From Escherichia coli (lineage in GTDB: Bacteria; Pseudomonadota; Gammaproteobacteria; Enterobacterales; Enterobacteriaceae), in assembly GCF_013315695.1 (NCBI RefSeq), contig NZ_CP054353.1: DNA of 64,000 nt; one strand, given 5' to 3'. Positions 5,012-17,620 of the stretch are shown in pieces. Under the pieces are notes generated by a model that had not been told where the DNA came from, searched no databases, and saw only the letters and a program-made list of their open reading frames with translations. The position numbers were made by a program, and so were the translations under genes. Numbering within the stretch: the first letter of the stretch is position 1; the number at the start of each line of letters is the position of its first letter.

Positions 5012-5974
5012 GTGATGATCAAAACGCATTTTTCTCGCTGGCTAACGTTTTTTACGTTCGCCGCTGCCGTGGCGCTGGCGCTACCGGCAAAAGCCAACAC
5101 CTGGCCGCTGCCGCCAGCGGGCAGTCGTCTGGTTGGTGAAAACAAATTTCATGTTGTGGAAAATGACGGTGGTTCTCTGGAAGCCATCGCCAAAAAATAT
5201 AACGTCGGCTTTCTCGCGCTGTTACAGGCTAACCCCGGCGTTGATCCTTACGTACCGCGCGCGGGTAGCGTGTTAACGATCCCGTTGCAAACCCTACTTC
5301 CAGACGCGCCGCGTGAAGGCATTGTGATCAACATTGCGGAGCTGCGTCTCTATTACTACCCGCCGGGTAAAAATTCGGTAACCGTGTATCCCATCGGCAT
5401 TGGTCAGTTAGGTGGTGACACGCTGACGCCAACGATGGTGACTACCGTTTCAGACAAACGTGCAAACCCAACCTGGACGCCAACGGCAAACATCCGCGCC
5501 CGTTATAAAGCACAGGGAATTGAGTTGCCTGCGGTAGTGCCGGCTGGACCGGATAACCCAATGGGCCATCATGCGATTCGTCTGGCGGCCTATGGCGGCG
5601 TTTATTTGCTTCATGGTACGAACGCCGATTTCGGCATTGGCATGCGGGTAAGTTCTGGCTGTATTCGTCTGCGGGATGACGATATCAAAACACTCTTTAG
5701 CCAGGTCACCCCAGGCACCAAAGTGAATATCATCAACACTCCGATAAAAGTCTCTGCCGAACCAAACGGTGCGCGTCTGGTTGAAGTACATCAGCCGCTG
5801 TCTGAGAAGATTGATGACGATCCGCAACTGCTGCCAATTACGCTGAATAGCGCAATGCAATCATTTAAAGATGCAGCACAAACTGACGCTGAAGTGATGC
5901 AACATGTGATGGATGTCCGTTCCGGGATGCCGGTGGATGTCCGCCGTCATCAAGTGAGCCCACAAACTCTGTAA
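5012..5974 (+). CDS. ldtC: L,D-transpeptidase LdtC (YcfS)
   Basis: ORF 5009..5974; GTG at 5012 gives MMIKT... and 320 aa; signal peptide and YkuD-type catalytic region (HGT...SSGCIRL). Confidence 0.9.
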   Translation: MMIKTHFSRWLTFFTFAAAVALALPAKANTWPLPPAGSRLVGENKFHVVENDGGSLEAIAKKYNVGFLALLQANPGVDPYVPRAGSVLTIPLQTLLPDAPREGIVINIAELRLYYYPPGKNSVTVYPIGIGQLGGDTLTPTMVTTVSDKRANPTWTPTANIRARYKAQGIELPAVVPAGPDNPMGHHAIRLAAYGGVYLLHGTNADFGIGMRVSSGCIRLRDDDIKTLFSQVTPGTKVNIINTPIKVSAEPNGARLVEVHQPLSEKIDDDPQLLPITLNSAMQSFKDAAQTDAEVMQHVMDVRSGMPVDVRRHQVSPQTL

Positions 5975-5983
5975 AGCACGGAT

Positions 5984-6023
5984 AAAAAAATCCCCGCGAC
6001 ACGGCATGTCGCGGGGAAAAAAA
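5984..6023 (-). terminator. Intrinsic terminator between convergent ldtC and bhsA
   Basis: 9-bp stem cccgcgac/gtcgcggg (5992..6016) flanked by A7 on the left (T7 on minus strand) and A7 on the right. Confidence 0.6.
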
Positions 6024-6056
6024 TCAGCAGTAGCAGGCATTAATGAGGGTTAATGC

Positions 6057-6314
6057 TTATTTATAAATTACTGCTGTTCCATGGAGGGTATTCGGACCGG
6101 TTACAGAAGTAATACGGAAAGATTTTGCGCCCATCTCATCCGCTTTTTGCGCCAGCTGCTCTTCCAACGATCCCAGATTTGTCCCCGCGTTAGCACTGAT
6201 AGTACCGACTTTTTGTTGGCCTTCTGGCGTTGACTGAACTTCGACAGCCGCAAAGCTGGCAAATGACATGGAGCTTAAAATCGCCGCAGCGATGAGGGTT
6301 TTTACGTTTTTCAT
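6057..6314 (-). CDS. bhsA: Multiple stress resistance protein BhsA (YcfR), DUF1471
   Basis: 85-aa ORF MKNVKTLIAAAILSSMSFASFA... with signal peptide; matches BhsA as recalled. Confidence 0.93.
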   Translation of the reverse strand: MKNVKTLIAAAILSSMSFASFAAVEVQSTPEGQQKVGTISANAGTNLGSLEEQLAQKADEMGAKSFRITSVTGPNTLHGTAVIYK

Positions 6315-6383
6315 AATAGTGGCCTTATGCAGATGAATGGCGTCGCAAGCAATTACTTAACGATCGATAACTAAATGATAGAT

Positions 6384-6399
6384 GTGATCTGGATCACAT
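6384..6399. promoter_or_regulatory. Perfect CRP-type palindrome TGTGA-N6-TCACA in the bhsA-comR divergent region
   Basis: tgtgatctggatcaca read directly; matches the CRP half-site consensus, but could equally be a TetR-family (ComR) operator. Confidence 0.4.
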
Positions 6400-6554
6400 A
6401 CAAGATATTTTTTATAACAATCATTAATTAATTTAAAAATCTTTAAATTTCAGTTAAATAGAAAGCAATTATTTTTATGGTTTGTGGACTGGTGAACGGA
6501 GGTGATTATTTTTATAATAACCTTTCATTCACAGTCACCAGGTACAACGGCATC

Positions 6555-7187
6555 ATGGCAACTGACTCAACACAATGTGTAAAAAAAAGCCGCGGCCGCC
6601 CAAAAGTGTTCGACAGGGATGCCGCGCTTGATAAGGCCATGAAATTGTTCTGGCAACACGGTTATGAAGCGACTTCTCTTGCGGACCTCGTTGAAGCGAC
6701 CGGAGCTAAAGCGCCCACGCTATACGCGGAATTTACCAACAAAGAGGGGTTATTCCGCGCCGTACTCGACCGCTATATCGATCGTTTTGCCGCTAAGCAT
6801 GAAGCACAGCTGTTTTGTGAAGAGAAAAGCGTGGAGTCTGCGCTGGCTGACTATTTTGCTGCCATCGCCAACTGCTTTACCAGCAAAGACACCCCGGCTG
6901 GCTGCTTTATGATCAACAACTGCACCACCCTCTCCCCGGATTCCGGAGATATCGGCAATACGCTGAAATCACGCCATGCGATGCAAGAGCGCACTTTGCA
7001 GCAGTTTTTATGTCAACGACAAGCGCGCGGGGAAATCCCGACCCACTGTGACGTGACGCATCTGGCAGAATTCCTTAATTGTATTATTCAGGGGATGTCG
7101 ATCAGCGCACGCGAAGGTGCATCGCTGGAAAAACTGATGCAGATTGCCCGAACGACTTTGCGTTTATGGCCCGAACTGGTGAAATAA
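6555..7187 (+). CDS. comR: TetR-family copper-responsive repressor ComR (YcfQ)
   Basis: ORF-track start 6477 trimmed to ATG 6555 (MATDSTQCVKKSRGRP...), 210 aa; N-terminal TetR helix-turn-helix. Confidence 0.9.
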   Translation: MATDSTQCVKKSRGRPKVFDRDAALDKAMKLFWQHGYEATSLADLVEATGAKAPTLYAEFTNKEGLFRAVLDRYIDRFAAKHEAQLFCEEKSVESALADYFAAIANCFTSKDTPAGCFMINNCTTLSPDSGDIGNTLKSRHAMQERTLQQFLCQRQARGEIPTHCDVTHLAEFLNCIIQGMSISAREGASLEKLMQIARTTLRLWPELVK

Positions 7188-7191
7188 GGCG

Positions 7192-7226
7192 CAAAAAATG
7201 CCCCTCAGCCTGAGCGAATGAGGGGC
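7192..7226 (-). terminator. Intrinsic terminator between convergent comR and ycfJ
   Basis: A6 tract then 8-bp stem gcccctca/tgaggggc (7200..7226). Confidence 0.55.
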
Positions 7227-7248
7227 CAAATTGCAGAGTACAGCCTTG

Positions 7249-7788
7249 TTATACTTTGTTATTCAAAATCAGTTGCCCGTTGCTATCTAGCGGGATCTGC
7301 GTACCCGGATCGCGGTCCATGCGGATTTTGCCCTGCTGATCGCCAATCTTATAGGTCACATCATAACCGAGCATTTTTTCTGACTTGTCATACACCGTTT
7401 TACAACGCTGTTGCGTAGTCGTGTAAGTATCGCTTTCCTGGAGAGAGCCCTGGATCTGGTTACCGGCATATCCACCACCCAGCGCCCCCACAACAGTGGC
7501 GACATCTTTACCGCGACCACCACCAAACTGATGCCCTATCACGCCACCAGCAACAGCGCCGAGCACCGACCCGGTAATGCGATTTTCATCCTGCACCGGT
7601 CGACGATGGGTCACTGTGACGTTGCGACACTCCTGACGCGGTGTTTTAACCGTTTCCTTGATTGGGATTGCAGAAACAACCTGAGCGTATTGCGGGCCAC
7701 GTTCAAACACGTTCAGACTGGCCACTGCCGCTACGCCCAGCGCAGCTGCGACACCAATCCCGATACCCGCCAACATTGATTTATTCAC
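7249..7788 (-). CDS. ycfJ: Glycine-zipper outer-membrane/periplasmic protein YcfJ
   Basis: ORF 7249..7926 trimmed to GTG at 7788 (MNKSMLAGIGIGVAAALG...), 179 aa. Confidence 0.88.
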   Translation of the reverse strand: MNKSMLAGIGIGVAAALGVAAVASLNVFERGPQYAQVVSAIPIKETVKTPRQECRNVTVTHRRPVQDENRITGSVLGAVAGGVIGHQFGGGRGKDVATVVGALGGGYAGNQIQGSLQESDTYTTTQQRCKTVYDKSEKMLGYDVTYKIGDQQGKIRMDRDPGTQIPLDSNGQLILNNKV

Positions 7789-17462: not shown

Positions 17463-17620
17463 AATTGAGAGTGCTCCTGAGTATGGGTGCTTTTTTTACG
17501 TTCTCACGCGTGGCAAGGGGGGAGAGCCTCGCCGTGTACAGGGCATCTAAGCGCCCTTTATTTATTACACAGAGTAAAATAATTCAGTGCCAATTTGTTT
17601 GACGGCTATCACGTTTCAAC
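17463..17620 (-). promoter_or_regulatory. ptsG promoter and 5' UTR region (expected site of Mlc/CRP control and SgrS pairing)
   Basis: Position immediately upstream of ptsG start; individual sites placed by established knowledge, not resolved here. Confidence 0.45.

What the first reader, a model, noticed from the sequence alone, without database searches (positions are those of the whole stretch)
6384..6399. Perfect TGTGA-N6-TCACA palindrome in the bhsA-comR divergent region
tgtgatctggatcaca is an exact match to both CRP half-sites with the canonical 6-bp spacer, sitting in an AT-rich 240-bp divergent promoter region. It could be a CRP site, or the operator of the TetR-family repressor ComR, which is known to control bhsA.
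Basis: partly seen in the sequence, partly recalled or inferred. Interest (0 to 1): 0.3.

Follow-up and report, generated by a model that had tools for sequence, protein, structure and literature searches.

The report
Known CRP repressor site in bhsA promoter
The palindrome is a real, near-perfect binding site for the sugar-sensing regulator CRP, placed inside the core promoter of the E. coli stress gene bhsA so that CRP switches the gene down; this is already in the literature and databases, so the finding is correct but ordinary.

Summary
TGTGATCTGGATCACA is present once in the window, at 6383-6398 (one base left of the stated coordinates). It extends to an 8+8 inverted repeat at 6382-6399. 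The locus is E. coli ldtC-bhsA/comR-ycfJ.

The palindrome is a CRP site:
- It scores 21.3 of 21.9 bits on a matrix built from 106 other in vivo CRP sites, ranking first.
- The same 16-mer is the published motif under a CRP ChIP-seq peak at ycfQ/bhsA in ETEC.
- All 72 distinct bhsA-comR spacers from over 15 genera keep the half-sites at the same offset, while the centre varies.

A published 5' RNA-seq TSS (MG1655 1,169,019 = window 6368, minus strand) puts the site at -15 to -30 (centre -22.5), filling the spacer between -35 TTGTAT and -10 TATCAT. Bound CRP should therefore block RNA polymerase. A published cAMP dose series agrees: bhsA falls steadily to log2 -1.9, and EcoCyc/RegulonDB-derived data list CRP as a bhsA repressor.

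The ComR-operator alternative is unlikely. A different palindrome, TAACGATCG(A/T)TA, flanks the CRP site on both sides at fixed spacing (O1 at +4.5, nearly invariant; O2 at -52.5) and is the better ComR candidate. This assignment is inferred, not shown.

Verdict: real and functional, but already known.

The parts
6383..6398 (.). CRP-cAMP binding site TGTGATCTGGATCACA (extended inverted repeat 6382-6399). It spans -15 to -30 of the bhsA promoter, centre -22.5, and contains two GATC (Dam) sites.
   Evidence: sequence. (21.32 of 21.93 bits, rank 1 of 107). (CRP ChIP-seq peak 1274886 in ETEC H10407 with this 16-mer, assigned ycfQ/bhsA). (conserved in all 72 orthologous spacers).
6398..6403 (-). 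bhsA promoter -35 hexamer TTGTAT. In other genera it is TTGACG, one base further out.
   Evidence: Read from the published -40..+4 promoter string and TSS. TTGACG in 59 of 72 spacers and TTGTAT in 5; spacer of 18 bp in 63 and 17 bp in 8. The hexamer assignment is my inference from the TSS.
6375..6380 (-). bhsA promoter -10 hexamer TATCAT.
   Evidence: Position relative to the mapped TSS. TATCAT, TATGAT or TATTAT in 57 of 72 spacers; most of the rest are offset artefacts of a 1-nt indel.
6368..6368 (-). bhsA transcription start (A, preceded by T at -1; UpA-primed initiation in stationary phase). The 54-nt 5' UTR runs 6368 to 6315.
   Evidence: Druzhinin et al. 2015 5' RNA-seq supplement gives 1169019 (+), 54 nt from bhsA. 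Mapped with K-12 v3 = 1,175,387 minus window position. The TA dinucleotide is conserved in 63 of 72.
6358..6369 (.). O1: TAACGATCGATA, core of a 28-bp imperfect palindrome (6350-6377), centred at +4.5 of bhsA. Candidate ComR (TetR-family) operator.
   Evidence: I1. (TTAACGATCGATA nearly invariant). (one mismatch or fewer to TAACGATCGTTA in 69 of 72). (26-27 bp from the CRP centre in all). The assignment to ComR is inferred.
6415..6426 (.). O2: TAACAATCATTA, a degenerate E. coli copy of the same palindrome (consensus TAACGATCGTTA in other genera), centred at -52.5 of bhsA.
   Evidence: three mismatches or fewer in 72 of 72, perfect in 9. (29-31 bp from the CRP centre).
6057..6314 (-). bhsA (ycfR/comC) coding sequence, a DUF1471 outer-membrane stress protein.
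   Evidence: NCBIfam equivalog NF047859, 137 bits against a cutoff of 90.
6555..7187 (+). comR (ycfQ) coding sequence, a TetR-family copper-responsive repressor, 210 aa.
   Evidence: 3 aa differences from K-12 ComR. Closest solved relative is CifR.
6490..6518 (+). Probable comR proximal promoter: TGGTGA, 17 bp, then a perfect TATAAT (6513-6518). It lies about 120 bp from the CRP site.
   Evidence: The ATTATTTTTATAAT block is at least 95% conserved and is retained in comR-only loci. No TSS data were found, so the promoter is inferred.

Best explanation
The palindrome is a near-consensus binding site for the cAMP receptor protein (CRP). It lies in the spacer between the -35 (TTGTAT) and -10 (TATCAT) hexamers of the sigma-70 promoter of bhsA, centred at -22.5. 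When cAMP is high (poor carbon supply), a CRP dimer occupies and bends this DNA, RNA polymerase cannot form a productive complex on the core promoter, and bhsA transcription falls. When cAMP is low (for example with glucose), the site is free and bhsA output is then set by ComR, other stress inputs and H-NS. ComR most likely binds not here but at the flanking TAACGATCGnTA palindromes, chiefly O1, which overlaps the transcription start. What is shown: the sequence, its score, its conservation, the TSS position, CRP occupancy in vivo in a sister strain, and the cAMP-dependent fall in bhsA mRNA. What is inferred: that repression works by steric occlusion at this site, and that O1/O2 are the ComR operators.
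For: (1) One exact match in 64 kb against 0.01 expected. (2) A leave-one-out CRP matrix from 106 other ChIP-seq motifs gives 21.32 of 21.93 bits, rank 1 of 107; the next best hit in the window is 12.13 bits. (3) Haycocks et al. 2015 (PMC4287617) list a high-confidence CRP ChIP-seq peak at ETEC H10407 position 1274886, with the motif TGTGATCTGGATCACA, assigned to ycfQ/bhsA. (4) Druzhinin et al. 2015 (PMC4488433) map the bhsA TSS at MG1655 1169019(+) with the promoter string atatcttgtatgtgatccagatcacatctatcatttagttAtcg. This equals window 6368, so the site spans -15 to -30. (5) In the cAMP dose-response array of PMC6121374, bhsA log2 fold change is 0, -0.24, -0.42, -0.96, -1.09, -1.66, -1.74, -1.94. 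bhsA is filed as an incoherent type-2 loop with comR, a class in which the authors say 'CRP acts as a repressor', built from EcoCyc/RegulonDB. (6) In 72 distinct spacers from Escherichia, Citrobacter, Salmonella, Enterobacter, Kosakonia and other genera, and in separately fetched Klebsiella, Superficieibacter and Dryocola loci, the left half is TGTGATC in 67 of 72 and the right half keeps TCAC in 71 of 72, with 23 different central 4-mers. This is the pattern expected for a dimer that reads two half-sites. All score at least 13.7 bits, above the median of real sites (13.0). (7) The -35, -10, 17/18-bp spacer and T(-1)A(+1) start are conserved around it. (8) The 101-bp core is at least 99% identical in 5343 of 5423 E. 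coli genomes.
Against: No binding or mutational experiment on this exact site could be read, so occlusion at -22.5 is inferred from geometry. The ChIP-seq was done in ETEC H10407 and not in this strain, although the motif is identical. The cAMP response could in part be indirect, for example through comR, which the same database-derived loop lists as CRP-repressed. One paper's statement that an EMSA showed CRP binding upstream of ycfR (citing Zhang 2007) could not be verified because the source is not held. A predicted second bhsA promoter further upstream (TTCACC-17-AATAAT) would place the site at about +63 to +78, where CRP would act differently, but no TSS supports that promoter.
Confidence: 0.88

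Rival explanations
1. The palindrome is the operator of the TetR-family repressor ComR. ComR binds it in the absence of copper and blocks the bhsA promoter, and copper releases it.
For: ComR is reported to bind the comC(bhsA) promoter region in vitro and to be released by copper; a review places the site about '60 bp upstream' of the gene. A perfect 8+8 palindrome in the -35/-10 spacer of the divergent target gene is a typical place for a TetR operator (own knowledge of the family). The palindrome disappears together with bhsA in the four comR-only lineages.
Against: The sequence is the top-scoring CRP motif and is occupied by CRP in vivo. A different palindrome, TAACGATCGnTA, is more strongly conserved (O1 nearly invariant), occurs twice per spacer in all 72 loci at 13 times the shuffled expectation, and overlaps the TSS. 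A weaker copy of that motif stays over comR's own -10 in comR-only loci, whereas the TGTGA palindrome does not. O1 spans 44-55 bp upstream of the ATG (36-63 for the 28-bp form), closer to '60 bp upstream' than the TGTGA palindrome at 69-84 bp. In E. coli only O1 is intact, which fits the report that ComR regulates comC but not itself. ComR ChIP-exo found no peak here at all, so it is uninformative.
Confidence: 0.08
2. The site is shared. CRP sits between two ComR dimers bound at O1 and O2, and the sharp CRP-induced bend helps them form one repression complex, so that carbon status and copper or envelope stress are integrated at a single promoter.
For: The O1-to-CRP and CRP-to-O2 centre distances are fixed at 26-27 and 29-31 bp in all 72 spacers. 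All three elements are conserved together in every bhsA-comR locus examined, including Klebsiella, Superficieibacter and Dryocola. Database-derived wiring already has CRP and ComR both repressing bhsA.
Against: Fixed spacing is also expected simply because all three elements are tied to the same promoter hexamers and TSS. O2 is degenerate in Escherichia (2 mismatches), where the system has been studied. No evidence of a CRP-ComR contact exists. That O1 and O2 bind ComR is itself only inferred.
Confidence: 0.1
3. The site mainly serves comR: CRP bound here activates or represses the divergent comR promoter.
For: The ChIP-seq peak is assigned to both genes. The EcoCyc/RegulonDB-derived loop type implies that CRP represses comR. 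It is the only strong CRP-like site in the spacer. A predicted constitutive comR promoter, TTTATA-17-TAAAAA (6411-6439), lies next to it.
Against: The conserved perfect TATAAT for comR is at 6513-6518, which puts the CRP centre near -134, too far for the usual direct mechanisms. With the predicted upstream promoter the centre would be about -55.5, which is not a standard activating position. comR-only lineages keep the proximal promoter without any CRP-like site. No comR TSS data were found; the 'TSS' in Latif 2018 is an artefact.
Confidence: 0.2
4. The palindrome is a chance occurrence or acts as an RNA hairpin or terminator, not as a protein-binding site.
For: The region is AT-rich and contains several other short inverted repeats.
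Against: Expected 0.01 times per window. Conserved across genera with a variable centre. It lies upstream of the bhsA TSS, so it is not in that mRNA. The hairpin is only -5.6 to -6.2 kcal/mol with z of -1.0 to -1.4 and has no T-run. No Rfam match at the site.
Confidence: 0.01

Closest known systems
Canonical CRP (CAP) DNA site, consensus AAATGTGATCTAGATCACATTT
   Same: The 22-mer AGATGTGATCTGGATCACATAC matches 18 of 22 positions, with both TGTGA/TCACA cores, the 6-bp spacer and the flanking TC/GA all perfect. It ranks above all 106 other in vivo sites used for the matrix.
   Different: Nothing in the site itself. The outer flanks are less A/T-symmetric on the -35 side because that flank doubles as the -35 hexamer.
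Promoters repressed by CRP through a site overlapping the core promoter (for example cyaA P2 and galP2; named from my own knowledge, not tested here)
   Same: The CRP site overlaps the region RNA polymerase must occupy, and expression falls as cAMP rises.
   Different: Here the 16-mer fills almost exactly the 17/18-bp spacer between the two hexamers (centre -22.5), and the promoter is also under a local TetR-family repressor.
Class I and class II CRP-activated promoters (site centred near -61.5 or further upstream, or near -41.5)
   Same: Same protein and same DNA motif.
   Different: Centre at -22.5, not -41.5 or -61.5, and the response to cAMP is negative. My own first guess of a class II arrangement, using a TAAGTA -10, was refuted by the mapped TSS.
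TetR-family divergent repressor/target pairs with palindromic operators (TetR-tetO, QacR-IR1, AcrR; own knowledge)
   Same: comR and bhsA are divergent across a 240-bp spacer. Palindromes O1 and O2 lie at the start site and upstream of the target promoter.
   Different: The palindrome in the finding is not the best operator candidate. The operator has not been mapped in any source I could read.
CytR-CRP nucleoprotein repression complexes (deoP2, cdd, tsx; own knowledge; a CytR comparative paper was seen)
   Same: A specific repressor and CRP occupy adjacent sites at fixed spacing on one promoter.
   Different: There CytR sits between two CRP dimers and turns an activator into part of a repressor complex. 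Here a single CRP site lies between two candidate repressor sites, and no protein contact is known.

Membership tests
CRP-cAMP binding site | Two-fold symmetric TGTGA-N6-TCACA core with a high score on a matrix of real sites | tested here: met
   21.32 of 21.93 bits, rank 1 of 107; none of 2000 spacer shuffles reach it.
CRP-cAMP binding site | Occupied by CRP in cells | tested here: met
   By literature look-up, not by an experiment of mine: a CRP ChIP-seq peak in ETEC H10407 with this exact 16-mer at ycfQ/bhsA. Not measured in this strain.
CRP-cAMP binding site | Expression of the adjacent gene responds to cAMP | tested here: met
   By literature look-up: bhsA log2 fold change falls steadily to -1.94 across the cAMP doses. 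A contribution through comR is not excluded.
CRP-cAMP binding site | Half-sites conserved in orthologous promoters while the central bases drift | tested here: met
   TGTGATC in 67 of 72, TCAC in 71 of 72, and 23 distinct central 4-mers.
CRP-cAMP binding site | Direct binding of purified CRP to this DNA, and loss of regulation when the site is mutated | not testable with these tools
   A second-hand statement of an EMSA could not be verified, because the source is not held.
Class I / class II CRP-activated promoter | Site centred near -41.5, or near -61.5 and further upstream on the same helix face, with positive regulation | tested here: not met
   Centre at -22.5 relative to the mapped TSS; cAMP lowers expression.
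ComR (TetR-family) operator | Palindrome in the promoter of the regulated divergent gene | tested here: inconclusive
   True of this palindrome, but equally true of O1 and O2, which are better conserved.
ComR (TetR-family) operator | Bound by ComR and released by copper at this sequence | not testable with these tools
   Only binding at promoter-fragment level is reported second-hand. Mermod 2012 is not held. ComR ChIP-exo gave 3 weak sites elsewhere and none here.
ComR (TetR-family) operator | The motif follows comR through evolution | tested here: not met
   In four lineages that keep comR but lost bhsA, the TGTGA palindrome is absent, while a TAATGATCGTTC-type motif remains at comR's -10. 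The converse case, bhsA without comR, could not be found.

The most novel reading that the evidence does not exclude
CRP and ComR form one conserved three-site repression module on the bhsA promoter. A CRP dimer at -22.5 is flanked at fixed distances (26-27 bp and 29-31 bp) by two TAACGATCGnTA palindromes bound by ComR, and the CRP-induced bend brings the two ComR dimers together. Carbon status and copper or envelope stress would then be read cooperatively rather than independently. The decay of O2 (and of a weaker copy at comR's -10) in Escherichia would explain why E. coli ComR does not autoregulate.
Probability: 0.1. Interest if true: 0.5.

Novelty: already known. Interest (0 to 1): 0.12.

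Why it matters
bhsA (ycfR/comC) is a widely used marker of envelope, copper, chlorine and biofilm stress in E. coli and Salmonella, so it is useful to know that its promoter is shut down by cAMP-CRP when interpreting such experiments, particularly with and without glucose. That link is already curated, so the finding adds no new biology. The by-products have modest value. First, the geometry is now explicit: the site fills the promoter spacer. Second, there is a concrete, testable candidate for the still unmapped ComR operator (TAACGATCGnTA, two copies flanking the CRP site).

Tried and rejected
1. My first model was a class II CRP-activated promoter (-10 TAAGTA, TSS about 6347-6349, CRP at about -41.5 to -43.5). 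It was rejected once the mapped TSS (window 6368) was found.

2. The 'TSS' 1167422 for ycfQ in Latif 2018 S1 is only the 3' end of the gene in U00096.2 coordinates, so I discarded it.

3. The held supplements of the Cappable-seq paper had no entry for this region.

4. ComR (YcfQ) ChIP-exo gave only cspA, metR and uxuA, with nothing at bhsA, so it says nothing about the operator.

5. The primary papers Mermod 2012, Zhang 2007 and Deng 2011 are not held.

6. I searched for bhsA orthologues without comR to separate the CRP and ComR readings. Klebsiella, Superficieibacter and Dryocola all have comR next door, and no E. fergusonii sequence could be retrieved from the cluster listing.

7. The closest solved structure, CifR, gave no transferable operator information.

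8. RNA readings were rejected: no Rfam match at the site and only a weak hairpin.

9. The simple promoter scan misses the real bhsA promoter, because TTGTAT and TATCAT fall below its 9-of-12 rule. It reports only TTCACC-17-AATAAT, which has no TSS support.

Full report
**Observation.** The 16-mer TGTGATCTGGATCACA occurs once in the 64-kb window, at 6383-6398. The finding's coordinates are one base too high. The symmetry extends one base further on each side, giving ATGTGATC-TG-GATCACAT at 6382-6399. Dinucleotide-preserving shuffles give 0.01 matches per window. The window is E. coli chromosome, gene order mfd-ldtC-bhsA/comR-ycfJ-ndh. bhsA is at 6057-6314 on the minus strand. comR is at 6555-7187 on the plus strand. 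The 240-bp spacer falls to about 21% GC. BhsA passes its NCBIfam equivalog model. ComR differs from K-12 ComR at 3 residues.

**Is it a CRP site?** I built a weight matrix from the 106 other motif instances under CRP ChIP-seq peaks listed by Haycocks et al. 2015 (PMC4287617), leaving this site out. The site scores 21.32 of a possible 21.93 bits, higher than every training site (best 20.06, median 13.01). The next best hit in the window is 12.13 bits. None of 2000 shuffles of the spacer reaches it. The same paper lists a high-confidence CRP peak at ETEC H10407 position 1274886 whose motif is exactly this 16-mer, assigned to ycfQ/bhsA. A full-text search found no other paper quoting the string. 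CRP occupancy in vivo is therefore published for an identical sequence in a sister strain.

**Where it sits.** The supplement of Druzhinin et al. 2015 (PMC4488433) gives the bhsA start from 5' RNA-seq: MG1655 coordinate 1169019 (+), 54 nt upstream of the gene, with the -40..+4 string atatcttgtatgtgatccagatcacatctatcatttagttAtcg. From the MG1655 annotation, K-12 position = 1,175,387 minus window position, so the start is window 6368 on the minus strand.
- The -10 is TATCAT (6380-6375).
- The -35 is TTGTAT (6403-6398).
- The palindrome spans -15 to -30, centre -22.5, so it fills the spacer between the hexamers.

This is not an activating position. A protein bound there should exclude RNA polymerase. 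I had first guessed a class II arrangement, and the mapped start refuted it.

**Direction of regulation.** PMC6121374 built CRP feed-forward loops from EcoCyc and RegulonDB and files bhsA, with comR as the second regulator, under incoherent type 2, a class in which the authors state that CRP acts as a repressor. Their cAMP dose-response array gives bhsA log2 fold changes of 0, -0.24, -0.42, -0.96, -1.09, -1.66, -1.74 and -1.94. The sign fits the geometry. CRP repression of bhsA is thus already curated knowledge.

**Conservation.** A scan of one genome per species with ComR returned 80 loci from Escherichia, Citrobacter, Salmonella, Enterobacter, Lelliottia, Leclercia, Kosakonia, Trabulsiella, Phytobacter, Yokenella, Siccibacter, Cedecea, Buttiauxella and others. 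Nearly all have bhsA divergent at 238-250 bp. The 72 distinct spacers show the following.
- A CRP-like site lies at the same offset in every one.
- The left half is TGTGATC in 67, and the right half keeps TCAC in 71.
- The four central bases take 23 different forms.
- All score at least 13.7 bits, with a median of 19.5.
- The -35 is TTGACG in 59, with an 18-bp spacer in 63.
- The -10 is TATCAT, TATGAT or TATTAT in 57, and the T(-1)A(+1) start is present in 63.

Klebsiella, Superficieibacter and Dryocola loci, fetched separately, look the same. Within E. coli, the 101-bp core is at least 99% identical in 5343 of 5423 complete genomes.

**The ComR alternative.** The same alignment shows a second motif, more conserved than the CRP site.
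- TTAACGATCGATA (O1; 12-mer core at window 6358-6369, centre +4.5) is nearly invariant.
- TATAACGATCGTTAA (O2; window 6415-6426, centre -52.5) is present everywhere but degenerate in Escherichia, where it reads TAACAATCATTA.
- Matches to TAACGATCGTTA occur at O1 with one mismatch or fewer in 69 of 72, and at O2 with three or fewer in 72 of 72.
- That is 2.35 hits per spacer against 0.18 in shuffles.
- The distances to the CRP centre are fixed at 26-27 and 29-31 bp.

Four lineages have lost bhsA so that ldtC runs into comR (L058, L064, L072, L073). In these the TGTGA palindrome, O1 and O2 are all gone, but comR keeps its conserved TATAAT block with a TAATGATCGTTC or TAATGATTGTTC motif over it. 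A review of Mermod et al. 2012 says that ComR binds about 60 bp upstream of comC and does not regulate itself. O1 spans 44-55 bp upstream of the ATG (36-63 bp for the 28-bp form), whereas the CRP palindrome spans 69-84 bp. O1 is also the only intact copy in E. coli, which would fit the lack of autoregulation.

I therefore assign ComR to O1 (and O2) and CRP to the palindrome. The ComR part is inference. The primary paper is not held, ComR ChIP-exo found nothing at this locus, and I could not find a bhsA-only genome for the converse test.

**Other readings.** The hairpin the palindrome could form is weak (about -6 kcal/mol, z about -1) and lies upstream of the transcript. No Rfam family matches there. 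The site is unlikely to act directly on comR's conserved promoter (TATAAT at 6513-6518), about 120 bp away. How the databases' 'CRP represses comR' would work remains unexplained, and I found no comR TSS data; the value in Latif 2018 is an artefact.

**Verdict.** The CRP interpretation is correct, and the mode is repression by occupying the core promoter. All of this is already in the literature and in EcoCyc/RegulonDB-derived data. What may be new is the explicit three-part layout (O1, CRP site, O2) and the candidate ComR operator. Both are modest and need wet-lab confirmation.

Noticed in passing
window 6350-6377 and 6412-6429: A palindrome of the form TAACGATCG(A/T)TA occurs on both sides of the CRP site in all 72 orthologous spacers, at fixed spacing. 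O1 overlaps the bhsA start and is nearly invariant. O2 is degenerate in Escherichia. It is a candidate for the unmapped ComR operator.
   Followed up: yes
window 6505-6518: The block ATTATTTTTATAAT, with a perfect TATAAT at 6513-6518 on the comR strand, is at least 95% conserved across genera and is kept in lineages that lost bhsA. It is probably the comR promoter. In some genera a TAATGATCGTTC motif directly follows it, hinting at ComR autoregulation outside E. coli.
   Followed up: partly
L058, L064, L072, L073 (about 1280-1500 in each): Four lineages (two Enterobacter sp., Pseudescherichia vulneris, Escherichia sp. ESNIH1) keep comR but have lost bhsA and its promoter, so ldtC is followed directly by comR.
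   Followed up: partly
window 6386-6389, 6392-6395 and 6362-6365: The CRP site contains two GATC Dam-methylation sites and O1 a third, so three conserved GATCs lie within about 35 bp of a core promoter. Protein binding could protect them from methylation, or methylation could affect binding.
   Followed up: no
window 17598-17613: TTTGACGGCTATCACG is identical to the motif that Haycocks et al. list under the ptsG CRP peak. It is the third-best CRP score in the window (12.06 bits) and lies upstream of ptsG by coordinate mapping.
   Followed up: partly
window 5984-6029: A strong GC-rich hairpin flanked by an A-run and a T-run (aaaaaaatccccgcgacacggcatgtcgcggggaaaaaaa) lies between the convergent ldtC and bhsA genes. 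It looks like a bidirectional intrinsic terminator and draws only sub-threshold Rfam sRNA hits.
   Followed up: partly
window 6368 (bhsA start): Published 5' RNA-seq shows that most stationary-phase bhsA transcripts start one base upstream through UpA-primed initiation. The T(-1)A(+1) dinucleotide this needs is conserved in 63 of 72 orthologous promoters.
   Followed up: partly
Table 1 of PMC4287617 (not in the window): Four genes of the DUF1471 family (yahO, ybiJ, bhsA, yjfY) all appear next to CRP ChIP-seq peaks in ETEC. A Klebsiella DUF1471 gene (KP1_4563) is also reported as CRP-repressed, which suggests family-wide control by CRP.
   Followed up: no
L061/L077, L062/L079, L065/L080: Kosakonia sacchari, K. 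arachidis and one soil MAG each carry two bhsA-comR pairs. Each pair has its own O1, CRP-like site and O2.
   Followed up: no
H10 (NZ_CP076709.1): One E. coli O158:H23 genome matches only 14% of the 5900-7300 query. An IS200C transposase is annotated between ldtC and ycfJ, so bhsA-comR appears to be missing there.
   Followed up: no
window 6477-6554: The mechanical ORF for comR starts at ATG 6477 (236 aa), but the annotated protein starts at ATG 6555 (210 aa). The extra 26 codons overlap the conserved promoter block and are probably not translated.
   Followed up: partly
L082 versus L083 (Klebsiella pneumoniae): The comR gene next to bhsA is called as 183 aa in one K. pneumoniae genome and 211 aa in another. 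This may be a start-codon call difference or a truncation.
   Followed up: no
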